A stretch of DNA of 37,603 bases, taken from contig CAYHVY010000001.1 in assembly GCA_964360095.1 (NCBI GenBank), forward strand, positions 1 to 37,603. Direction: 5' to 3'. The notes under the pieces were generated by a model, which did no database searches, was not told the origin of the DNA, and saw nothing but the letters and a program-made list of their open reading frames with translations. The stretch comes from an uncultured Candidatus Peribacteria bacterium. Its GTDB lineage: Bacteria > Patescibacteriota > Gracilibacteria > UBA1369. Position numbers and translations under genes: made by a program. Shown here in pieces: positions 2,095 through 37,603 of the stretch (position 1 is the first letter of the stretch; every line of letters starts with the position of its first letter).

Positions 2095-5000
2095 ATGCAT
2101 AAACGTCACATCCTCAAAGTCGGCATCATTATCCTGGTAACGCTCATTCTGGGCTTTATTGATTTGCCGTCAGAAAAGCAGAAAAAGCTCTTTCCGCCTA
2201 CGCCACAGGCAATCCAGGACAGCAAATATCATTTGGGTCTGGATTTGCAGGGAGGATCTCAGCTTGATTACAAAATTGACCTGCGAAAAGTTCCCGAAAA
2301 GGATCGGAAAAGCATTATTGAAGGAGTCAGTAACGTCATCAACACGCGGGTCAACGGTTTAGGCGTATCTGAACCAAATATTTATCTTTCTTCCGTCGGG
2401 GATGAACAACATCTTATTGTTGAACTCGCCGGCATAAAAGATCTGGAAGAGGCTAAAAAGGTAGTTGGGAAAACAATTCAGCTGGAATTTAAAGAGCAGC
2501 GCGGCACTGAAGATACGGAAGCCCCTAAAAGAGCAAAAAACGCGGCCCAGGCGCTTCTGGACAAAGTAAAAGCCGGTGGCAATTTTGATGTTCTGGGCAA
2601 AGAAGAGTCTCTTGGAAATCCCGGAAAAGTGACTTTTCAGGAGGTTGATTTTCAGTATAAAGATCAGGTGCCATCGGCTCTTGTAAATGACCTTTTTAGC
2701 GCAAAACCCGGAGAAATTCTTAAAAACATCATTGAAACAAGCGGTGAATACAGTATTGATGCAACAGGTCAATTAGCGCCAAGCAAAGGGCACAATGTGG
2801 TAAAATTGCTGGAAAAACGCGACCAAAAACGTGAAATAGATGAAAAACGCGAAGTAACTGTGAGTCATATTTTAGTTGCATACAAGGGCGCGGAACGGGC
2901 GGATTCCGCCGTAACGCGTACTGAAGATGAGGCCAAAAAACGCGCCGCAGAAGTTCTGGAAAAATTGCAAAAGGGTGGAAAATTTGATGAATTGGCAAAA
3001 CAATATTCGGACGACAAAAGCAATAAAGACAGGGGTGGGGCTTTAGAGCAGGCGGTTAAAGGTGAAAGCCAATACGCGAAAGAATTTGAAACCGCCGCTA
3101 TGGCATTAAAAAAAGTTGGAGATCTATCCCCTGTCACAAAAACGTCTTTTGGTTTTCATATAATCAAAGCGGATAAAATCAAAGAAGCCTTAAAGGAGAC
3201 AAGAACCGAACCGCAGGTAAAATATACGAAGATTTTTTACAGTGCGGCATCAGATCCATGGCAGGATACGGAATTAAGCGGAAAACACTTCACACACGCT
3301 GACATTCAATATGATCAGCTTTTCAATCCATATGTATCCATTCAGTTCAATGATGAAGGGGCAAAACTTTTTGAAAAACTCACTGAAAAAAATGTCGGTA
3401 AACCATTGGCCATTTTTGTTGGAGGACAGCTTATTTCTGCACCAAACGTGAATGAAAAAATCAGCGGAGGTAAAGCTCAAATAAGTGGCCGTTTCACATT
3501 GGAAGAAGCCAACAAGCTGGCACGCGACCTCAATACCGGAGCAATACCGGCCCCAATCGTCTTGGCCGGTCAATATACGATTGGAGCGACACTTGGGCAG
3601 GATGCTCTTAATAAAAGTCTTTTCGCGGGCAGTATTGGCTTTCTCCTGGTCGCTCTGTTTATGATTCTCTATTACCGTCTGCCAGGCCTGCTGGCTGTCA
3701 TCGCTCTCACGATCTACGCAATTTTAATGCTGTTCCTGATTAAAACTGCCATGCCGCTCTATTGGTCTCTCCCGATATCCGTGGCTGCATTTGTCTTTTT
3801 AGTGATGAAGATTCTTCGTTCCCGCGAATCAGGGGCCGAAAAAGCAATTGGACTTGTTCTTTCCTGTTTTGTGCTTTTCTTTCTAAGCTTCCTGCTTTCA
3901 ACACCGGTTGTAATGACATTGGCTGGTATCGCCGGCGTTGTTTTATCCATTGGTATGGCCGTGGATGCCAATATTCTTATTTTTGAAAGGATAAAAGAGG
4001 AACTTCGTGATGGACGCACTCTGAGCGCGGCCATTGAAGTTGGCTTTGACAGGGCATGGAATTCCATCCGGGATTCAAATTTTTCTTCTCTCATCACCTG
4101 CGGAATTCTTTTTTATTTTGGAAGTTCCATTATTCAGGGTTTTGCTTTTAACCTTGCGGCGGGTATTTTGGTTTCCATGTTTACAGCCATTACCATTACA
4201 AAAACCTTTATTTCCGCTCTGATAAACACAAAATTGGCCAATAACTTGTGGCTTTTTGGAACACCAAAGAAAAAAGAAAAGAAATTATTGCCGATTATTC
4301 CAAACAGAAAAACCGCCTACATTGTCTCACTGACTGTATTGGCACTGGCTCTCATTAGCATACCCGTTTTTGGGCTTAAATTGGGGCTCGACTTCACCGG
4401 AGGAACGCTGATGGAATTCAAGTTTCAAAAGGCTGTTAATGTTTCGGACATAGAAAAAGCTTTTCAGGAAAGTGTTCAAATATTAAATCAACAAAAAGAT
4501 AAAAAAACTGAGAGTAAAATTGACCCCGGAACTCCGCACATAGTTCCAAGCGAACAGGGATTTATTGTGAAAACACGCCATATCAGCTCGGAGATTCACG
4601 ATCTTTTGATTCCGGAACTTAAAAAGAAACTTGGGGCGTTTGAAGAAACACGCTTTAATACTGTAGGCCCGACTGTTGGAGAAAGTCTGCGTTGGCGCGC
4701 GACATTGGCTGTGGCGGTCGCCAGCATAATGATTGTGCTGTATGTCGCTTTTGCTTTCCGCAAAATTCCGCGTTATGTAAGTAAGTGGCGTTTTGGAACG
4801 GCCGCGATTATCGCTCTGTTGCATGATTTGGGCATCATGCTTGGGGTATACGTATATTTTGGAGTATTTTTTAACGTTGAAATTGACGCGCTTTTCATTA
4901 CAGCAATGCTGACAATTCTTGGATTTTCGGTCCATGACACCATTGTCGTTTTTGATCGTATCCGCGAGAAACTCAAATATCAGAAACATGATGAAAGTTT

Positions 5001-5241
5001 TGCTGAAATTACAAATCAGGCCGTCAATGAAACCATCGCGCGCTCCATCAACACATCTTTTTCGGTATTTCTTACCCTGCTGGCCCTGGCTATTTTTGGA
5101 GGCGAAAGCATTCGTTTCTTTGTTTTATCGCTTCTGGTGGGCATCGTGGCCGGCACGTATTCCTCCGTTTTTGTCGCAAGCCCCGTGCTTGTAGACTGGC
5201 AGGAGCATGCTAAAAAAGCGGTACACGAGAAAAAGAAGTGA
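2095..5241 (+). CDS. secDF: Fused protein-export membrane protein SecD-SecF with parvulin-type PPIase modules inserted in the SecD periplasmic P1 domain
   Basis: SecD motifs are GLDLQGGSQL, VNGLGVSEPNI and TLEEANKLARDLNTGAIPAPI, followed by 6 TM segments. SecF motif GLDFTGGT is followed by 6 more TM segments. Residues about 254-362 read as parvulin (VTVSHILVAYKG...GGKFDELAKQYSDD...GGAL...SFGFHIIKAD). Confidence 0.9.
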   Translation: MHKRHILKVGIIILVTLILGFIDLPSEKQKKLFPPTPQAIQDSKYHLGLDLQGGSQLDYKIDLRKVPEKDRKSIIEGVSNVINTRVNGLGVSEPNIYLSSVGDEQHLIVELAGIKDLEEAKKVVGKTIQLEFKEQRGTEDTEAPKRAKNAAQALLDKVKAGGNFDVLGKEESLGNPGKVTFQEVDFQYKDQVPSALVNDLFSAKPGEILKNIIETSGEYSIDATGQLAPSKGHNVVKLLEKRDQKREIDEKREVTVSHILVAYKGAERADSAVTRTEDEAKKRAAEVLEKLQKGGKFDELAKQYSDDKSNKDRGGALEQAVKGESQYAKEFETAAMALKKVGDLSPVTKTSFGFHIIKADKIKEALKETRTEPQVKYTKIFYSAASDPWQDTELSGKHFTHADIQYDQLFNPYVSIQFNDEGAKLFEKLTEKNVGKPLAIFVGGQLISAPNVNEKISGGKAQISGRFTLEEANKLARDLNTGAIPAPIVLAGQYTIGATLGQDALNKSLFAGSIGFLLVALFMILYYRLPGLLAVIALTIYAILMLFLIKTAMPLYWSLPISVAAFVFLVMKILRSRESGAEKAIGLVLSCFVLFFLSFLLSTPVVMTLAGIAGVVLSIGMAVDANILIFERIKEELRDGRTLSAAIEVGFDRAWNSIRDSNFSSLITCGILFYFGSSIIQGFAFNLAAGILVSMFTAITITKTFISALINTKLANNLWLFGTPKKKEKKLLPIIPNRKTAYIVSLTVLALALISIPVFGLKLGLDFTGGTLMEFKFQKAVNVSDIEKAFQESVQILNQQKDKKTESKIDPGTPHIVPSEQGFIVKTRHISSEIHDLLIPELKKKLGAFEETRFNTVGPTVGESLRWRATLAVAVASIMIVLYVAFAFRKIPRYVSKWRFGTAAIIALLHDLGIMLGVYVYFGVFFNVEIDALFITAMLTILGFSVHDTIVVFDRIREKLKYQKHDESFAEITNQAVNETIARSINTSFSVFLTLLALAIFGGESIRFFVLSLLVGIVAGTYSSVFVASPVLVDWQEHAKKAVHEKKK

Positions 5242-13184: not shown

Positions 13185-14057
13185 ATGCTAGAAGAACATA
13201 TGAAAATTTACGATTCCAATGGCCAAGAAATTGCCGATATTGCCAAGGATAATGATGTAGTCCGACTTGTTATGCTATCGACAACAGGCACACATGAGCG
13301 AGTTCACGAAATTTTTTATGGCGTTGGAGATACTCAAGATCCTCAATTTGAAGCTAGGCTAAGAAATGCTTATGAAAGTAATGGATTCCGTTTTGAAAGT
13401 GCCAAGGATATTGAACAAAAGACTGCTAGAAATGTTTATTTTATCCACGAAAGCAATCTTATTGAAAATATAGTGGAAATTGATGAAAAACTTATTGGAG
13501 AGCGTTATAAAAAACGAACTCAACTGGGTTGTGTCGGCGCTTGGCTTCTCGGAGAAGATAGAGTAAAAGATAAACAACCGCTTTCTGGTAAAGATGTTAT
13601 AAGCATGCAACGTATGCTTACTGATGAACAAGCTATCTATGGACATTTTCTTGAAAATAAATACCGTGGTATCATACGCGGAGAAAACGATTTGGTGAGC
13701 ATTGGAGGACGCACTGTTATTCCGCCACGTCCCGAAGACTATGAAAGCTTTTTTACACGATTTAACGGTGGATTGCAGCAATTAAATCCAAGGAGCATTA
13801 GAGAGATCCTATGTTATCTTGCAAAAACCCATGTTGAATATGAAAGCATGCACCCTTTTGCTGATGGTAATGGCCGTACCGGAAGAAATATCGTCAATTA
13901 TGGCTTAAGCTACTTTAGTCTTCCAGTACTTGTCTTTACTAACCAGGATAAAGGAAAGTATTATGCAGGATTTATTGAAACAACTCAAGACATTTCAGTA
14001 ATGGAAGCATATTTTATAGAAAAATATCGTGAGCAAAATCCAGGATTGTTCCAATAA
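13185..14057 (+). CDS. Stand-alone class II Fic-domain protein, paralogous to the C-terminus of the upstream giant protein
   Basis: The canonical motif HPFADGNGRTGR begins at His223 (nt 13851). The inhibitory motif SNLIEN at residues 90-95 is also exactly 133 residues upstream of the His. The gene lies 13 nt after the giant gene. Confidence 0.85.
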   Translation: MLEEHMKIYDSNGQEIADIAKDNDVVRLVMLSTTGTHERVHEIFYGVGDTQDPQFEARLRNAYESNGFRFESAKDIEQKTARNVYFIHESNLIENIVEIDEKLIGERYKKRTQLGCVGAWLLGEDRVKDKQPLSGKDVISMQRMLTDEQAIYGHFLENKYRGIIRGENDLVSIGGRTVIPPRPEDYESFFTRFNGGLQQLNPRSIREILCYLAKTHVEYESMHPFADGNGRTGRNIVNYGLSYFSLPVLVFTNQDKGKYYAGFIETTQDISVMEAYFIEKYREQNPGLFQ

Positions 14058-23303: not shown

Positions 23304-24089
23304 ATGTATCCAATCTTTCTCCAAATAGGACCGGTCACCATCTACGCGCTACAGGTGTTCATGTCCATCGGTTTTCTCATGGCTCTTCTCGTACTTAATA
23401 AATTGATTCAAAAAGACCGCGATAAATTGACTTTTATTGCCAATCATAGTTTTGGCATTTTTTTGGGAGGCTTGATAGTGTCACGACTGATTTTTGTTAT
23501 CCGAAACGTGAAAGTTTTTTTTACGCCTCCATTTCTTACTCATTTCGCGGAAATTTTTTATATTTGGGATAAAGGTCTTTCTCTTTGGGGAGGTTTACTT
23601 GGAATCATACTCATGCTCACATATTATTGCGGAAAGAAACGGCAAAATCTCCGATCATGGCTTGATATATTCGTCATAAGCGTAATGTCCGGACTTGTTT
23701 TTGGCAATATTGGAACATTTTTGGACGGCCGGAATTACGGACGTGAAACAGTGTTGCCCTGGGGAGTTCTTATGGAAAATTCACGTTACGCGGTTCCAAT
23801 CCATCCCGTGCAACTTTATGCCGTCATTTATACTCTTATTTTAACAATTTTTTTAATGAAGTTTTTAAAAAGCAATTTTGGTAAAACGGCTGGAAATACA
23901 GCTCTTATTGGCGGCACCATTTACGCGTTTTTACGTTTTTTGGAAGAATTTTTCCGCGGAGATGAAAGCAATTATTTTTTCTTTTTTCGGGAAGCTCAAA
24001 TATATGCAGCTATTGCTTTCATCGTTGGCTGTGTTTTAATGTATCGTAGAATCAAAAGTCAAAATATCCTCAAACATCAAGAAGTATGA
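23304..24089 (+). CDS. lgt: Prolipoprotein diacylglyceryl transferase
   Basis: The protein is polytopic and carries WDKGLSLWGGLLG, GRNYGRETVLPWGV and HPVQLYA motifs. Confidence 0.85.
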   Translation: MYPIFLQIGPVTIYALQVFMSIGFLMALLVLNKLIQKDRDKLTFIANHSFGIFLGGLIVSRLIFVIRNVKVFFTPPFLTHFAEIFYIWDKGLSLWGGLLGIILMLTYYCGKKRQNLRSWLDIFVISVMSGLVFGNIGTFLDGRNYGRETVLPWGVLMENSRYAVPIHPVQLYAVIYTLILTIFLMKFLKSNFGKTAGNTALIGGTIYAFLRFLEEFFRGDESNYFFFFREAQIYAAIAFIVGCVLMYRRIKSQNILKHQEV

Positions 24090-24530: not shown

Positions 24531-25733
24531 TTATTTCCCCCAGTTCAACATATTGAGCTTATTTTTGTCCAGATAAAAAAGCGTGCGGTTTTTGGCGAAA
24601 AAAAACATGTCTTCAAAACGATTTATATTTGTCAACAAAGGAAAAACATTGGAAATGGAAAGATCGCTAACGGAAATATGATCTCTTCCCCGAAAAAGAA
24701 AATGTTCATCATCAAACCAGCCAATTAAGCCAAAATCGCCGTTATAGGAATGCAATAATTTTTTTTCATCCAGGCGCGGGTCATAGAAAAAAAGTTGTTT
24801 ATCAAAATCCGAAAAAAGAATCTGATTTAAACCGTTTAAAAAAACGCTTGGAAAAATCCTTTCAGCAACAAGTTTTAGGCTGGAATCAGGGTTCACAAGA
24901 TAGAGGGAAAACGCGCTATCGTTGGCAAAAGGAGGGGTTGTCTGAAAAACAAGAAAAGAATAGTTTTTATTTTCAATCGTCTTGACCGTATAAAATTTCT
25001 GAAAACTTTGATCAAGTAAAGCGACTTGTTTATCTGCAAAATCGCTCGAAAATAACATGCCGGAACTTAGGTAGTATATTTTCTTTTTTGCAATGGCAAA
25101 ATCGGTAACATCCGGCCTGATTTTTTCTCCAAAACTTGACACCTCTTCATCAAGAAAAATCGATTCCTTGACGTTGTCCTGAAAATGCGCCAGTAATTGG
25201 CCGGAAGACATAATTTCAACGCGCTCCAAATTTTCATGGTGAAGAGGAATTTCTTTTTGTCTGAAAGTTCCATCATCGTTCAAAAATATTACAGTTAAAT
25301 ATGGCTGATTTGGCTTGGTTATGACCAAAAATTCATCTCCGGCAACAACATGGACATCATCAACAAAACTGATGAGTTCCTTTGTCCACGCGGATATATT
25401 ACCCGGAACAAAAAGAATATCGGTTATTTTTGATACAAAATCCGCTTTTACATTCAATGTTCGTTTCCATGGCAAAAAATCTTTCTTCTTAAGAAGAAGC
25501 TCCGCCGTTCCTGGTAAAACGTCTTTTATCTGATAGGGTAAATTACCCATGTGTATTATTTTTCCATTAAATGTAACCTCTACAGCGCTTTCATGACCGG
25601 TGAGATCAATAATGCTGGTTTTTTTTATATCCTGCCGCGCGACATCATACTGGTATCCATAAGCCAAAAAAAGCGCATAAAATGACACGGCGCAAAATGC
25701 CAGGATGCCAATAAGTTTCAATAAAAAACGCAT
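24531..25733 (-). CDS. Membrane-anchored PEGA-domain-like protein
   Basis: An N-terminal TM segment (LIGILAFCAVSFYALFLAY) is followed by a PEGA-like segment (VEVTFNGKII...LPGTAELLLKKKDFLPWKRTLNV) and then a beta-rich region. Confidence 0.55.
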   Translation of the reverse strand: MRFLLKLIGILAFCAVSFYALFLAYGYQYDVARQDIKKTSIIDLTGHESAVEVTFNGKIIHMGNLPYQIKDVLPGTAELLLKKKDFLPWKRTLNVKADFVSKITDILFVPGNISAWTKELISFVDDVHVVAGDEFLVITKPNQPYLTVIFLNDDGTFRQKEIPLHHENLERVEIMSSGQLLAHFQDNVKESIFLDEEVSSFGEKIRPDVTDFAIAKKKIYYLSSGMLFSSDFADKQVALLDQSFQKFYTVKTIENKNYSFLVFQTTPPFANDSAFSLYLVNPDSSLKLVAERIFPSVFLNGLNQILFSDFDKQLFFYDPRLDEKKLLHSYNGDFGLIGWFDDEHFLFRGRDHISVSDLSISNVFPLLTNINRFEDMFFFAKNRTLFYLDKNKLNMLNWGK

Positions 25734-35989: not shown

Positions 35990-37603
35990 CTACGGTTTCT
36001 GACGAATTATAATATCCAAATTAGCTCCCGGAATATCCACCACGCGAATACCACGTAAAAGGGCTTCGTAATTTTTCTCAATGGCTTCAATACGAATATC
36101 CAGTTTTTTTACCGCTTTTTCGTAAAAATCCAGAATCTGCTGTAGAGCCGAAAGACGAGCTTTTAAAGCTGTCTGTTTTTGAGCAACATCAACAAAACTC
36201 TGAAGTAGAAAATTTGCTTTTTCGCCGGCAAGACCTTCCAAAGACGCAAAAAAGTCCTGTTCAAGATTTTTTCTGTCAGGTCCAAGACTGTTAAAAGAAA
36301 TCTTCAAATCATCAATCTGCAAACCAAGTTCCTTAATAATTCTCGCGCTATTAGTGCGAACATTTTTAATTTTGCCAAGATAATCGGCAAGTTTAGAATC
36401 GCGCTGCGATGTCTGGTTTAACATGGCATACACATCTGTATCATACAGACTTTTGAGCTCACGGAGATTATGAATATACTCAATAAAAAGAGTTGCTCTT
36501 GCAAGCATATCTTTATATTGTCCATAATGATAAGCGGCCGTAATACCTGTTTCGCCTGCGACTGCAGGCTCGGCAAGTTTTCCAAAATAAAAGGCGTTTT
36601 TTATTGATGGAGTAACAACGTCTGTCAACGAACCGCTGTTTTTCGCAAAGATATAAGCGGTTCTGATTCCCCACGCGCGCAAAAATCCTTCATCTACACG
36701 GATTTCAACTGGCGCGGGAGGTGTTTTTGATTGGAAAAAAGCCATTATTTGACCATATGCAGATCTGCCGATATTGACCGCGATCCCGCTCGCAAACAAA
36801 AATCCCAAAAAAACAACAACTGCTGTAAGAACCACATATTTGAGGCGCAAATGCGCTCCCGCAAAAGCGGCGCCGTTTCCAAACTTTTTCTTAAAACCCG
36901 CTGAAAAACTGCCGCCAACCCCGGCTTTGGCCGCACCGCCAGTAGATTTTTCCTGTATTTCAGCGGCCTCAGCATGATCACTTAGCTCCTCCTGCGTAGA
37001 AATCTCCTGCTGATTGATAGGCACGGATTCTTCCACAAATTCTTCCTGCTCAATGATTTCAGGAGCGGTATTTTCCTCGGCTTCAGTAGGTGCGGGCTTC
37101 AAATCCACCCCTACGTCATGGGATGGAAAAAGCTCCGGAAATGGCTCTTTTGCTTCGTATTCGGGAGAGGTAGGGGCAGGTTTCAAACCCGCCCCTACCT
37201 CTTGAGGTTCAGGCTGCGGTTCTGGAGGCACGGACACGAATTCAGATTCCGGCTGGACAGTTGAAGGTTGAATATCGGACAATGACGGCTCTATCACGGC
37301 AGGCTCTTTTTTCGCTTCTGGTTCTGGCTGCACCACGGAACGCGGATCCGAGTTCCCTACGTCAGGGTTTTTTAATTCTTGCGCTTCTTCTGTGGAATGA
37401 AGGTCTTCGTTCCCTACGTTGGTTTCTTGAGGCGGAGGTCCAATGAAAGTGTGGTGCTGAACAGACGGATAAATGTCTTCCAGGGACTCCGTCAACGGCA
37501 AAGGCGCAAGATCTTGTACCTCTGCTTTTTGCGATTCCGATCCTGGTTCTAGCGGTAATTGTGTTTTTTCCTTTGAAGTTTTTTTAACTGTTTTTTTCTT
37601 TTC
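35990..37603 (-). CDS. Hypothetical membrane-anchored protein with a Pro/Glu-rich N-terminal region (5' end outside the window)
   Basis: The frame stays open from the TTG at 37501 to the window edge (EKKKTVKKTSKEKTQLPLEPGSESQKAEVQDLAP...). It has one TM segment (YVVLTAVVVFLGFLFASGIAV) followed by a helical C-terminal domain. Confidence 0.6.
   Translation of the reverse strand, partial: EKKKTVKKTSKEKTQLPLEPGSESQKAEVQDLAPLPLTESLEDIYPSVQHHTFIGPPPQETNVGNEDLHSTEEAQELKNPDVGNSDPRSVVQPEPEAKKEPAVIEPSLSDIQPSTVQPESEFVSVPPEPQPEPQEVGAGLKPAPTSPEYEAKEPFPELFPSHDVGVDLKPAPTEAEENTAPEIIEQEEFVEESVPINQQEISTQEELSDHAEAAEIQEKSTGGAAKAGVGGSFSAGFKKKFGNGAAFAGAHLRLKYVVLTAVVVFLGFLFASGIAVNIGRSAYGQIMAFFQSKTPPAPVEIRVDEGFLRAWGIRTAYIFAKNSGSLTDVVTPSIKNAFYFGKLAEPAVAGETGITAAYHYGQYKDMLARATLFIEYIHNLRELKSLYDTDVYAMLNQTSQRDSKLADYLGKIKNVRTNSARIIKELGLQIDDLKISFNSLGPDRKNLEQDFFASLEGLAGEKANFLLQSFVDVAQKQTALKARLSALQQILDFYEKAVKKLDIRIEAIEKNYEALLRGIRVVDIPGANLDIIIRQKP
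37086..37114. repeat. Degenerate copy of the GAGLKPAPT-type hairpin element, in frame
   Basis: GTAGGTGCGGGCTTCAAATCCACCCCTAC encodes VGVDLKPAPT on the minus strand. Confidence 0.6.
37166..37202. repeat. 37-nt REP-like hairpin (GTAG...CTAC) in frame inside a CDS
   Basis: AGAGGTAGGGGCAGGTTT-C-AAACCCGCCCCTACCTCT has a single A/C mismatch that becomes a G-U pair on the coding (minus) strand. It encodes EVGAGLKPAPTS. Confidence 0.8.

What the first reader, a model, noticed from the sequence alone, without database searches (positions are those of the whole stretch)
2512..3180. SecDF fusion carries parvulin-type PPIase modules inside the SecD periplasmic head
Seen in the sequence: one 1048-aa ORF has SecD hallmarks (GLDLQGGSQL, VNGLGVSEPNI, TLEEANKLARDLNTGAIPAPI, 6 TM) and SecF hallmarks (GLDFTGGT, 6 TM). 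About 220 residues lie between the two conserved halves of the SecD P1 domain. Residues about 254-362 read as a canonical parvulin rotamase (VTVSHILVAYKG...KGGKFDELAKQYSDD...GGAL...FETAAMALKKVGDLSPVTKTSFGFHIIKAD). Residues about 140-245 look like a degenerate second copy (AGGNFDVLGKEES...PSALVNDLFSAKPGEILKNIIETSGEY). Established knowledge: parvulin chaperones that act on secreted proteins (PrsA, SurA, PpiD) are normally separate proteins, and the SecD P1 head is thought to grip the emerging substrate. Inference: foldase and translocation motor are covalently merged here, which would suit a minimal genome lacking stand-alone periplasmic chaperones.
Basis: partly seen in the sequence, partly recalled or inferred. 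Interest (0 to 1): 0.7.

Follow-up and report, generated by a model that had tools for sequence, protein, structure and literature searches.

The report
SecDF translocation motor with built-in parvulin foldase
The protein-export helper SecDF of this candidate-phyla-radiation bacterium carries two parvulin-type protein-folding modules, one apparently active and one degenerate, next to its moving outer head; this layout is real and common in the group but has apparently never been described.

Summary
ORF 2095-5241 (+, 1048 aa) is an intact SecD-SecF fusion. Between Pfam SecD_1st (res 78-135) and SecDF_P1_head (391-486) lie about 258 residues, where Thermus SecDF has 41.

- **Module 2 (res 251-365):** a canonical parvulin (Rotamase_3, E 4.5e-28). 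The AlphaFold model matches Pin1 and PrsA at 1.2-1.7 Å. The tetrad H258/D307/T350/H355 is kept in 54-57 of 57 homologues.
- **Module 1 (res 136-250):** a degenerate parvulin-like module without the histidine pair.

The layout is not peculiar to this genome. All 120 best full-length homologues carry it (Peregrinibacteria/Peribacteria). Single-parvulin SecDs fill Moranbacteria and Parcubacteria. Of the 150 best 50%-identity cluster representatives, 69 have a parvulin at this site. Sources name them only SecD or SecF, and eight literature searches found no description.

The "replaces missing chaperones" inference fails. Seven related genomes encode both the fusion and a free lipoprotein copy of the same parvulin-plus-head unit.

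Most likely function: a proton-driven translocation motor with a PrsA/SurA-like foldase-chaperone mounted beside its substrate-binding head. Verdict: a new variant of a known kind, of moderate interest.

The parts
2095..5241 (+). Complete SecD-SecF fusion gene (1048 aa plus stop)
   Evidence: ORF list. Pfam and NCBIfam SecD/SecF models score above their cut-offs. Foldseek of the full AF2 model hits SecDF 5xap at E 2.1e-35. A 100% identical protein, P0001, is in public data.
2110..2160 (+). TM1 of SecD (res 6-22)
   Evidence: Helix 6-22 in the AF2 model; hydrophobic sequence ILKVGIIILVTLILGFI.
2227..2499 (+). P1 base part: GG motif and SecD_1st, ending in the strand IQLEFK (res 45-135)
   Evidence: Pfam SecD_1st 78-135. 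Aligns to Thermus SecDF 20-118. Mean pairwise identity among homologues is 0.74.
2500..2844 (+). Parvulin-like module 1 (res 136-250): degenerate, lacks the catalytic histidine pair
   Evidence: Rotamase E 1.1e-4 when scanned alone. The NCBIfam SurA model aligns 145-363 to SurA 193-384. The AF2 secondary-structure order fits a parvulin fold, and SurA 1m5y aligns over 243-246 columns. Position 233 is Y/F in most homologues. hhalign against module 2 aligns only 29 columns. phmmer against PDB gives nothing significant.
2845..3189 (+). Parvulin module 2 (res 251-365): canonical PPIC-type PPIase domain with a complete catalytic tetrad
   Evidence: Rotamase_3 E 4.5e-28. PrsA and Pin1 sequence hits. 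BLASTP to Pin1 gives 36% identity, E 1e-14. AF2 pLDDT is about 90-96, and Foldseek gives 3ik8 TM 0.88 / 1.7 Å and PrsA 4wo7 1.2 Å.
2866..2868 (+). Codon of His258 (equivalent of Pin1 His59)
   Evidence: Alignment to Pin1; H in 55/57 homologues.
3013..3015 (+). Codon of Asp307 (equivalent of Pin1 Cys113; Asp in bacterial parvulins)
   Evidence: Alignment to Pin1; D in 54/57 homologues, and neighbouring D306 in 56/57.
3142..3144 (+). Codon of Thr350 (equivalent of Pin1 Thr152)
   Evidence: Alignment to Pin1; S or T in 56/57 homologues.
3157..3159 (+). Codon of His355 (equivalent of Pin1 His157)
   Evidence: Alignment to Pin1; invariant 57/57.
3190..3270 (+). Conserved beta linker returning from module 2 to the head (res 366-392; Q374, K376, W389, T392)
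   Evidence: Long strands 366-383 and 389-395 in both AF2 models; column conservation.
3271..3594 (+). P1 head core (res 393-500), the substrate-contacting, swinging subdomain
   Evidence: Pfam SecDF_P1_head 391-486. Aligns to Thermus 160-262. Mean pairwise identity 0.71. Role of the head from PMC5974789.
3595..4254 (+). SecD TM2-TM6 (res 501-720), with the proton-pathway Asp624 in the VDANIL motif
   Evidence: Aligns to Thermus TM region, with D624 aligned to Tt D340. D624 is invariant. Helices in the AF2 model.
4297..5238 (+). SecF half (res 735-1048): GG motif, P4 domain, TM7-12, with Asp948 and Arg983
   Evidence: TIGR00966 733-1035. D948 aligns to Tt D637 and R983 to Tt R671. Both are invariant.

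Best explanation
The gene encodes a working proton-driven SecDF translocation factor. Its large extracytoplasmic P1 domain has acquired a tandem of parvulin modules at the base-to-head junction.

The tandem resembles the two parvulin domains of SurA. The first module is non-catalytic and chaperone-like. The second is a catalytically competent peptidyl-prolyl isomerase of the PrsA type.

The P1 head is the part of SecDF that contacts the polypeptide leaving SecYEG and swings with proton flow. The parvulins therefore ride next to the substrate site. They would bind the emerging chain and isomerise its prolyl bonds as it is released.

In effect, a PrsA/SurA-type foldase is tethered covalently at the exit of the Sec channel. 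This is a shared trait of many CPR (Patescibacteria) lineages, not an oddity of this genome.

- **Shown:** the domain identities, their order, their conservation, the intact motor residues, and the wide distribution.
- **Inferred:** that module 2 is enzymatically active, that it acts on Sec substrates, and how it sits in space.
For: - **Domain calls.** Pfam and NCBIfam domain calls and their order.
- **Insertion site.** Mapped on Thermus SecDF.
- **Insert model.** pLDDT 89.9. Matches Pin1 (TM 0.88, 1.7 Å) and PrsA (1.2-1.4 Å, 39-42% identity). SurA aligns across both modules.
- **Catalytic tetrad.** H258/D307/T350/H355 maps onto Pin1 H59/C113/T152/H157. It is kept in 54-57 of 57 homologues at 54-90% identity.
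- **Motor residues.** D624, D948 and R983 align to Thermus D340, D637 and R671 and are invariant.
- **Constraint.** Module identity is 0.40 and 0.52. That is lower than the core (about 0.7) but similar to the SecF P4 domain (0.47).
- **Distribution.** All 120 best full-length homologues carry Rotamase plus SecD/F domains. All 120 best homologues of a single-parvulin SecD do as well (Moranbacteria, Parcubacteria). Of the 150 best 50%-identity representatives, 69 do. About 63 GTDB species genomes do.
- **Autonomous unit.** The parvulin-plus-head unit also exists as a free lipoprotein whose modules match the SecD modules one for one. This argues that it works as a folding or chaperone unit in its own right.
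- **Independent biology.** AlphaFold models place both SurA parvulin domains on the SecDF P1 head in E. coli (PMC9987972). PrsA-like PPIC lipoproteins dock on SecYEG-SecDF in Mycoplasma pneumoniae (bioRxiv 10.1101/2025.04.25.650208). The P1 head cavity contacts precursor proteins (PMC5974789).
Against: - No enzymatic or genetic data exist for any member.
- In the Peregrinibacteria type, the loop that lines the proline pocket is altered: GG(A/V)L(E/D)xxV...Y replaces the canonical GGDLGFFxxGQM seen in other CPR SecDs. Activity or specificity may therefore differ.
- Module 1 is only marginally a parvulin by sequence.
- The full-length model has modest confidence (pLDDT 75, pTM 0.53), and no coordinates could be inspected. 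The position of the parvulins relative to the head cavity and to SecYEG is not established.
- Some parvulin domains of Sec-associated chaperones (SurA P1, PpiD) are inactive or dispensable (established knowledge).
- A common origin for the single-module and tandem types is not shown by sequence.
Confidence: 0.7

Rival explanations
1. The parvulin modules are holdase or scaffold modules only. They enlarge the substrate-binding surface of the P1 head, as SurA P1 and the PpiD parvulin domain do, and contribute no meaningful prolyl isomerase catalysis.
For: Module 1 lacks the histidine pair and barely matches parvulin profiles. In the Peregrinibacteria type the proline-pocket loop of module 2 departs from the canonical GGDLG-F/M motif. 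By established knowledge, the PPIase activity of SurA and PpiD is dispensable for their chaperone function.
Against: The full tetrad His-Asp-Thr/Ser-His of module 2 is kept in 54-57 of 57 homologues and in the free lipoprotein paralogue (H238 and H334 invariant). A pure scaffold would not need this. The model superposes on active PrsA and Pin1 domains at 1.2-1.7 Å.
Confidence: 0.2
2. The insert serves SecDF itself or the envelope rather than substrates. It might gate or bias the swing of the P1 head, or anchor the head to the cell wall or S-layer.
For: The insert sits exactly at the base-to-head junction that moves during the cycle. The models predict long beta-ribbon connectors (strands 232-250 and 366-383) that could stiffen this junction.
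Against: The same parvulin-plus-head unit exists as a free lipoprotein without any motor. It therefore has a function that does not depend on SecDF dynamics. Conservation of a catalytic tetrad is also unexplained by this reading.
Confidence: 0.08
3. Assembly or gene-calling artefact: a parvulin gene was wrongly joined into secD in a chimeric contig.
For: None found. It was considered because the window comes from an uncultured organism.
Against: The reading frame is uninterrupted. An identical protein and over 120 homologues with the same order lie on independent contigs from several sources, including closed chromosomes of 1.37-1.49 Mb.
Confidence: 0.01

Closest known systems
SecDF of Thermus thermophilus / Deinococcus radiodurans (PDB 3AQP, 5XAP, 5YHF)
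   Same: 12-TM RND-type fold, P1 base, P1 head and P4 domains, GG motifs, and the proton-pathway Asp/Asp/Arg residues.
   Different: The 41-residue segment between the base strand (LEFR) and the head core is replaced here by 258 residues forming two parvulin modules plus a beta linker.
PrsA, the lipoprotein foldase of Bacillus and other monoderm bacteria (PDB 4WO7, 6VJ6, 5HTF)
   Same: A parvulin PPIase held at the outer face of the cytoplasmic membrane to act on Sec-exported proteins. Module 2 is 39-42% identical to PrsA parvulin domains and superposes at 1.2-1.4 Å.
   Different: PrsA is a separate, lipid-anchored dimer whose parvulin is inserted in an NC chaperone domain. Here the anchor is SecDF itself, no NC or SurA_N domain is detected, and there are two parvulin modules.
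SurA of E. coli (PDB 1M5Y) and its reported contact with the SecDF P1 head
   Same: A tandem of one inactive and one active parvulin. The NCBIfam SurA model spans both modules, and Foldseek aligns 243-246 columns. AlphaFold models in PMC9987972 place both SurA parvulin domains on the SecDF P1 head.
   Different: SurA is soluble, has N- and C-terminal chaperone segments that are absent here, and serves outer-membrane proteins. CPR bacteria are regarded as monoderm (PMC9166423). Here the contact is covalent.
Mycoplasma pneumoniae 'dome' complex (Mdp436/444/489 on SecYEG-SecDF)
   Same: A genome-reduced bacterium that couples the Sec translocon, including SecDF, physically to PrsA-like PPIC-domain proteins. 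Only one of these keeps catalytic residues (bioRxiv 10.1101/2025.04.25.650208; 10.1101/2024.09.05.611430).
   Different: In Mycoplasma the foldases are separate large lipoproteins forming a chamber. Here the parvulins are part of the SecD chain. No sequence relationship beyond the parvulin fold was tested.
PpiD-YfgM at the E. coli SecYEG translocon
   Same: A membrane-anchored parvulin-containing chaperone positioned at the Sec exit (PMC9643414).
   Different: PpiD is a separate single-pass protein with an inactive parvulin that binds SecY rather than being part of SecD.

Membership tests
SecD/SecF protein translocase subunits (TIGR01129, TIGR00966; RND superfamily) | Scores above the curated family cut-offs for both halves | tested here: met
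   TIGR01129 380.9 bits (cut-off 244.4); TIGR00966 312.8 bits (cut-off 160); Pfam SecD_SecF_C x2, Sec_GG x2. The full-length SecDF equivalog models fall below their cut-offs (e.g. NF009583 614 vs 721), as expected with a 217-residue insert.
SecD/SecF protein translocase subunits (TIGR01129, TIGR00966; RND superfamily) | 12 transmembrane helices with P1 (base plus head) and P4 extracytoplasmic domains | tested here: met
   AF2 model secondary structure. Foldseek to SecDF 5xap gives E 2.1e-35, TM 0.64 on the target. This is a predicted, not solved, structure.
SecD/SecF protein translocase subunits (TIGR01129, TIGR00966; RND superfamily) | Proton-pathway residues (Thermus D340 in TM4, D637 in TM10, R671 in TM11) | tested here: met
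   D624, D948 and R983 align to them and are invariant in 57 homologues.
SecD/SecF protein translocase subunits (TIGR01129, TIGR00966; RND superfamily) | PMF-dependent stimulation of protein export | not testable with these tools
   Needs genetics or biochemistry.
Parvulin PPIase (Pfam PF00639 / PF13616), module 2 (res 251-365) | Profile score above the gathering cut-off | tested here: met
   Rotamase_3 98.6 bits (cut-off 22.5); Rotamase 94.5 bits (cut-off 21.7).
Parvulin PPIase (Pfam PF00639 / PF13616), module 2 (res 251-365) | Parvulin fold (four-stranded sheet with four helices) | tested here: met
   AF2 pLDDT about 90-96. Foldseek: Pin1 3ik8 TM 0.88, 1.7 Å; PrsA 4wo7 1.2 Å. Predicted structure.
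Parvulin PPIase (Pfam PF00639 / PF13616), module 2 (res 251-365) | Catalytic tetrad His / Cys-or-Asp / Thr-or-Ser / His | tested here: met
   H258, D307, T350 and H355 align to Pin1 H59, C113, T152 and H157. Conserved in 55, 54, 56 and 57 of 57 homologues.
Parvulin PPIase (Pfam PF00639 / PF13616), module 2 (res 251-365) | Measured cis-trans isomerase activity | not testable with these tools
   Needs an enzyme assay.
Parvulin PPIase, module 1 (res 136-250) | Profile score above cut-off and parvulin fold | tested here: inconclusive
   Rotamase scores 23.5 bits against a 21.7 cut-off, but Rotamase_3 (20.6 vs 22.5) and Rotamase_2 (23.6 vs 27) fall below theirs. No PDB sequence hit. hhalign to module 2 covers only 29 columns, P 4.7e-5. 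The helix/strand order and the SurA two-domain Foldseek alignment fit. In relatives such as P0175 the first module scores clearly as Rotamase.
Parvulin PPIase, module 1 (res 136-250) | Catalytic histidine pair | tested here: not met
   No His at the first-strand position. Position 233 is Y/F in 47 of 57 homologues.
PrsA foldase lipoprotein | Lipoprotein signal peptide, and an NC (SurA-N-like) chaperone domain flanking the parvulin | tested here: not met
   The N-terminus is SecD TM1 with no lipobox. No SurA_N or PrsA-type N-domain hit in Pfam. PrsA NCBIfam models score 51-53 bits against cut-offs of 343-361. It works like PrsA but is not a member.
SurA | N-terminal chaperone domain, two parvulins and a C-terminal tail | tested here: not met
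   Only the two-parvulin part aligns (SurA model positions 193-384). Score 38.5 bits against a cut-off of 394.

The most novel reading that the evidence does not exclude
The P1-head-plus-tandem-parvulin unit may be an autonomous extracytoplasmic folding device. In SecDF it would be mechanically coupled to the proton-driven swing of the head. CPR bacteria would then have an energy-coupled foldase outside the cytoplasm, where no ATP is available. Capture, prolyl isomerisation and release of the exported chain would be timed by proton flow. The free lipoprotein copy would be the uncoupled version of the same device. The fusion would also be natural 'Rosetta stone' evidence that parvulin chaperones (SurA, PrsA, PpiD) work on the SecDF head in other bacteria.
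Probability: 0.15. Interest if true: 0.85.

Novelty: new variant of a known kind. Interest (0 to 1): 0.55.

Why it matters
**Open question.** How proteins leaving the Sec channel are handed to folding helpers, in a compartment without ATP, is unresolved.

**Indirect evidence so far.**
- Low-resolution EM and AlphaFold models place SurA's parvulin domains on the SecDF P1 head in E. coli.
- In-cell tomography shows PrsA-like lipoproteins docked on SecYEG-SecDF in Mycoplasma.

**What this adds.** A large bacterial radiation has written this contact into a single polypeptide. That is independent evolutionary support for the foldase-on-SecDF arrangement.

**Practical value.**
- It offers a one-chain object for structural and biochemical study of translocation-coupled folding.
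- It flags a systematic annotation gap. Hundreds of CPR proteins named only 'SecD' or 'SecF' also carry a likely PPIase.
- 'PrsA present or absent' calls in CPR genome surveys may be confounded by this embedded domain and by its lipoprotein paralogue.

Tried and rejected
- **Foldseek with the whole 1048-aa model** returned only SecDF and RND transporters and said nothing about the insert. I therefore modelled the insert alone.
- **phmmer of module 1 against PDB sequences** gave no significant hit. **hhalign of module 1 against module 2** aligned only the two-helix segment. The claim that module 1 is a parvulin stays moderate.
- **Cluster look-ups for organism names** of 30 diverse representatives gave few names. 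All named SecD-type ones were CPR. The triple-parvulin stand-alone proteins turned out to be Deltaproteobacteria and Planctomycetes, unrelated to the question.
- **Nearest-neighbour comparison of parvulin modules** showed that the lipoprotein modules match the SecD modules one for one. It did not show that the single-module (Moranbacteria-type) and tandem (Peregrinibacteria-type) inserts share an origin, so that question is left open.
- **Eight literature searches** found no description of a SecD-parvulin fusion. The library lacks most subscription-journal papers, so absence is not proof.
- **Chimeric assembly** was considered and rejected.
- **Model coordinates** could not be inspected, so no statement is made on the distance between the parvulin active site and the head cavity.
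- **Long SecDF variants.** I did not examine whether the variants behind NCBIfam NF009585 (993 positions) or NF009540 (1403 positions) contain parvulins.
Full report
**1. What is in the sequence**

The window holds one uninterrupted ORF at 2095-5241 on the + strand, 1048 aa.

Pfam gives, in order:
- SecD_1st 78-135 (E 1.7e-14)
- Rotamase_3 236-360 (4.5e-28) and Rotamase 258-360 (8.2e-27)
- SecDF_P1_head 391-486 (1.2e-28)
- two SecD_SecF_C domains (1.5e-64) and two Sec_GG motifs

NCBIfam's secD and SecF domain models both score well above their cut-offs (380.9 vs 244.4 and 312.8 vs 160). Several PrsA, SurA and PpiC models hit residues about 145-406 far below theirs.

Against solved structures, residues 32-135 align to Thermus thermophilus SecDF 20-118 and residues 394-549 align to 160-316. 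So 258 residues stand where Thermus has 41.

**2. The two modules**

*Module 2 (residues 251-365)* is an ordinary parvulin by every test:
- Profile scores are four times the cut-off.
- It matches PrsA and Pin1 sequences directly and is 36% identical to the human Pin1 catalytic domain (E 1e-14).
- A model of the insert alone (residues 126-398, 26 homologues, mean pLDDT 89.9) superposes on Pin1 (TM 0.88, 1.7 Å), B. subtilis PrsA (1.2 Å, 39% identity) and B. cereus PrsA (1.4 Å, 42%).
- The Pin1 alignment maps H59, C113, T152 and H157 onto H258, D307, T350 and H355.
- In 57 full-length homologues of 54-90% identity these positions are H in 55, D in 54, S/T in 56 and H in 57.
- The basic residues that make Pin1 phospho-specific are absent, as in bacterial parvulins.

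*Module 1 (residues 136-250)* is weaker:
- Scanned alone it reaches Rotamase at E 1.1e-4, just above that model's cut-off but below those of the two sister models.
- It has no significant PDB sequence match.
- A profile-profile comparison with module 2 aligns only the two-helix segment (29 columns, P 4.7e-5).
- In its favour, the order of helices and strands in both models is that of a parvulin. The NCBIfam SurA model aligns across both modules (145-363 to SurA 193-384). Foldseek aligns SurA over 243-246 columns. In related SecDs the first module scores plainly as Rotamase (P0175).
- It lacks the histidine pair; position 233 is Y or F in most homologues.

I read it as a degenerate, non-catalytic parvulin-like module, comparable to SurA P1. 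The first strand of this module may be the SecD base strand IQLEFK. That is a model-based suggestion only.

**3. Where the insert sits and whether the motor is intact**

The insert follows the last base strand (LEFK, Thermus LEFR 113-116). It precedes the head core, to which it returns through a conserved beta linker (366-392). It is therefore at the base-to-head junction rather than in the middle of the head.

The same site holds 10 to about 155 residues in other SecDs. Some of these inserts, 90-145 residues long, match no Pfam family. The site is thus a hot-spot for insertions.

The proton-pathway residues of Thermus SecDF (D340, D637, R671) align to D624, D948 and R983, which are invariant in the 57 homologues. 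The full-length model (pLDDT 75.2, pTM 0.53) is recognised as SecDF by Foldseek (5xap, E 2.1e-35). Nothing suggests a decayed gene.

Within the family, the modules evolve faster (mean pairwise identity 0.40 and 0.52) than the base, head and TM core (0.69-0.74). They evolve about as fast as the SecF P4 domain (0.47).

**4. How common it is**

- The 120 best full-length homologues (53-100% identity, about 1006-1139 aa apart from two shorter fragments) all carry PF00639/PF13616 together with SecD/SecF domains. Where a source names them, they are 'protein translocase subunit SecF' or 'SecD/SecF fusion protein'. The organisms named are Candidatus Peregrinibacteria, Altimarinota or Patescibacteria group bacteria.
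- A search of 1.84 billion cluster representatives with the P1 region gave 310 hits below 1e-30.
- I classified the best 150 with HMMs built from the homologue alignment. Of these, 69 are SecD or SecDF with one to three parvulin modules between SecD_1st and the head. Another 31 have parvulins plus head but no TM domain. And 34 are SecDs without parvulin.
- Variants include stand-alone SecD with two modules (655-722 aa), SecD with one module (about 560-620 aa), and longer forms (775-830 aa).
- The 120 best homologues of one single-module SecD (P0204) all carry Rotamase plus SecD domains. The named ones come from Candidatus Moranbacteria, Parcubacteria and Patescibacteria group bacteria, including a 2016 record. 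Falkowbacteria and Kuenenbacteria SecDs with Rotamase also appeared.
- A scan of GTDB species genomes returned 80 loci. About 63 of them are SecD(F) genes with the tandem insert, in Peregrinibacteria, Peribacteria and 'Gracilibacteria'-labelled genomes.
- The closest genome is an uncultured Candidatus Peribacteria MAG (L015, which equals P0002, 90% identity). This places the window's organism.
- Apart from one partial record labelled Pseudomonadota (P0120), every named organism carrying the architecture is CPR. I could not test systematically whether it exists outside CPR.

**5. The 'minimal genome' inference**

The window has no other parvulin or P1-like sequence in any frame, and its other genes are ordinary housekeeping genes. 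But 37.6 kb cannot show absence.

Related genomes speak against the idea. A family of proteins of about 455-530 aa begins with a lipoprotein signal peptide (a near-invariant Cys). It continues with a weak SecD_1st-like segment, module 1, module 2 and a P1-head-like domain, and has no transmembrane domain. Pfam confirms Rotamase_3 (2.7e-30) plus SecDF_P1_head (27.3 bits, cut-off 27) in one of them.

Its module 1 is closest to SecD module 1 and its module 2 to SecD module 2. It is therefore a duplicate of the SecD P1 region with its insert.

Seven genomes hold both this lipoprotein and the SecDF fusion:
- Bin_387 (L001 and L010)
- SRP332253_co1_95 (L003 and L011)
- the closed 1.37 Mb chromosome OY969931.1 (L004 at 753 kb and L022 at 878 kb)
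- ERP107533_co1_54 (L005 and L014)
- AUK087 (L008 and L012)
- SAG AM-311-A13 (L007 and L035)
- SW.3.65 (L013 and L038)

 A published survey also reports PrsA in all CPR classes (PMC9166423). The fusion is therefore not a substitute for missing stand-alone foldases, at least not generally.

**6. Mechanism**

From the literature, the P1 head has an amphiphilic cavity that cross-links to precursor proteins. It swings between membrane-facing and upright forms in a proton-dependent cycle (PMC5974789).

The most economical reading follows. The tandem parvulin rides at the foot of this head. The degenerate module adds binding surface, and module 2 isomerises prolyl bonds of the chain as it is pulled out and released. 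This would be a PrsA/SurA-type activity tethered at the Sec exit.

Three lines outside this sequence point the same way:
- AlphaFold models of E. coli SecDF with SurA put both SurA parvulin domains on the P1 head (PMC9987972).
- PpiD-YfgM sits at SecYEG (PMC9643414).
- In Mycoplasma pneumoniae, PrsA-like PPIC lipoproteins form a dome on SecYEG-SecDF, with putative substrate density touching the one active-looking PPIC domain (10.1101/2025.04.25.650208).

The free lipoprotein copy shows that the parvulin-plus-head unit is useful without the motor. This favours a substrate-directed role over a role in SecDF dynamics.

The main uncertainty is catalysis. In the Peregrinibacteria type, the loop lining the proline pocket is unusual: GG(A/V)L(E/D)..V...Y instead of GGDLGFF..GQM. 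Several Sec-associated parvulin domains in model organisms are known to be inactive or dispensable. I give 0.7 to the foldase-chaperone reading, 0.2 to a holdase-only version, and little to the rest.

**7. Comparison with known families, and novelty**

The protein is a member of SecD/SecF, and module 2 is a member of the parvulin family. It is not a PrsA, SurA or PpiD: it has no lipobox, no NC or SurA_N domain, and scores far below those family cut-offs. It only works like them.

Eight full-text searches found no paper describing a SecD or SecDF with an embedded parvulin. The sequences have been public since at least 2016, and the protein collection searched here carries precomputed Pfam hits for them. 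The architecture is thus visible in databases but unremarked.

I rate it a new variant of a known kind. The interest is moderate. A Sec specialist would find a natural covalent SecD-foldase fusion across a whole radiation, plus its lipoprotein offshoot, informative. It would not overturn current thinking.

Noticed in passing
L001-L009 and L013 (e.g. L004:2995-4392 +); proteins P0186, P0190, P0197, P0397-P0423: A free-standing lipoprotein family (about 455-530 aa) in Peregrinibacteria/Peribacteria. It has a lipobox Cys, a weak SecD_1st-like segment, two parvulin modules (H238 and H334 invariant) and a SecDF P1-head-like domain, but no transmembrane domain. Its modules match the SecD modules one for one, so it is a duplicated SecD P1 region. 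Sources name it 'hypothetical protein' or 'peptidylprolyl isomerase'. It co-occurs with the SecDF fusion in seven genomes.
   Followed up: yes
L004:4373-5254 (-) and L013:4313-5053 (-): A trypsin-like peptidase gene (Pfam Trypsin_2) lies convergent to, and slightly overlapping, the 3' end of the lipoprotein paralogue in both loci examined. It is followed by 5-formyltetrahydrofolate cyclo-ligase and SHMT. This could be a foldase-protease quality-control pair.
   Followed up: partly
L069:1234-1962, L070:1194-1910, L073:1168-1917 (+): In three Peribacteria loci, a separate ORF of about 240-250 aa with a P1-head-like hit lies directly upstream of a SecD that has a long insert (single clear parvulin plus extra sequence). 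Its nature is not examined.
   Followed up: no
proteins P0203, P0221, P0232, P0246, P0217: These SecDs carry 90-145 extra residues at the same base-to-head site with no Pfam match. P0231 has a weak Rotamase_2 hit (8.2e-5). The site is an insertion hot-spot, and some inserts may be unrecognisably diverged parvulins or other domains.
   Followed up: partly
window:2845-3189 (res 314-331) compared with P0141, P0155 and others: The Peregrinibacteria-type module 2 replaces the canonical parvulin loop GGDLGFFxxGQMxxxF with GG(A/V)L(E/D)x(P/A)V...Y.KEF, while keeping the catalytic tetrad. This may mean altered substrate preference.
   Followed up: no
window:9002-13171 (+) and 13185-14057 (+): Two adjacent Fic/DOC-domain proteins. 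The first is very large (1389 aa) with the Fic domain only at residues 1182-1298. The rest of it has no Pfam match.
   Followed up: no
window:21784-23223 (+), 24531-25733 (-), 35990-37501 (-): Three long ORFs (479, 400 and 503 aa) with no Pfam family at E <= 0.001. The first lies directly upstream of the prolipoprotein diacylglyceryl transferase gene lgt (23304-24089).
   Followed up: no
window:5275-8581: Downstream of secDF lie two overlapping minus-strand ORFs (426 and 246 aa) and a plus-strand ORF of 388 aa with a P-loop motif (GGPRQVGKTT). They were not scanned against any family library, so their nature is untested.
   Followed up: no
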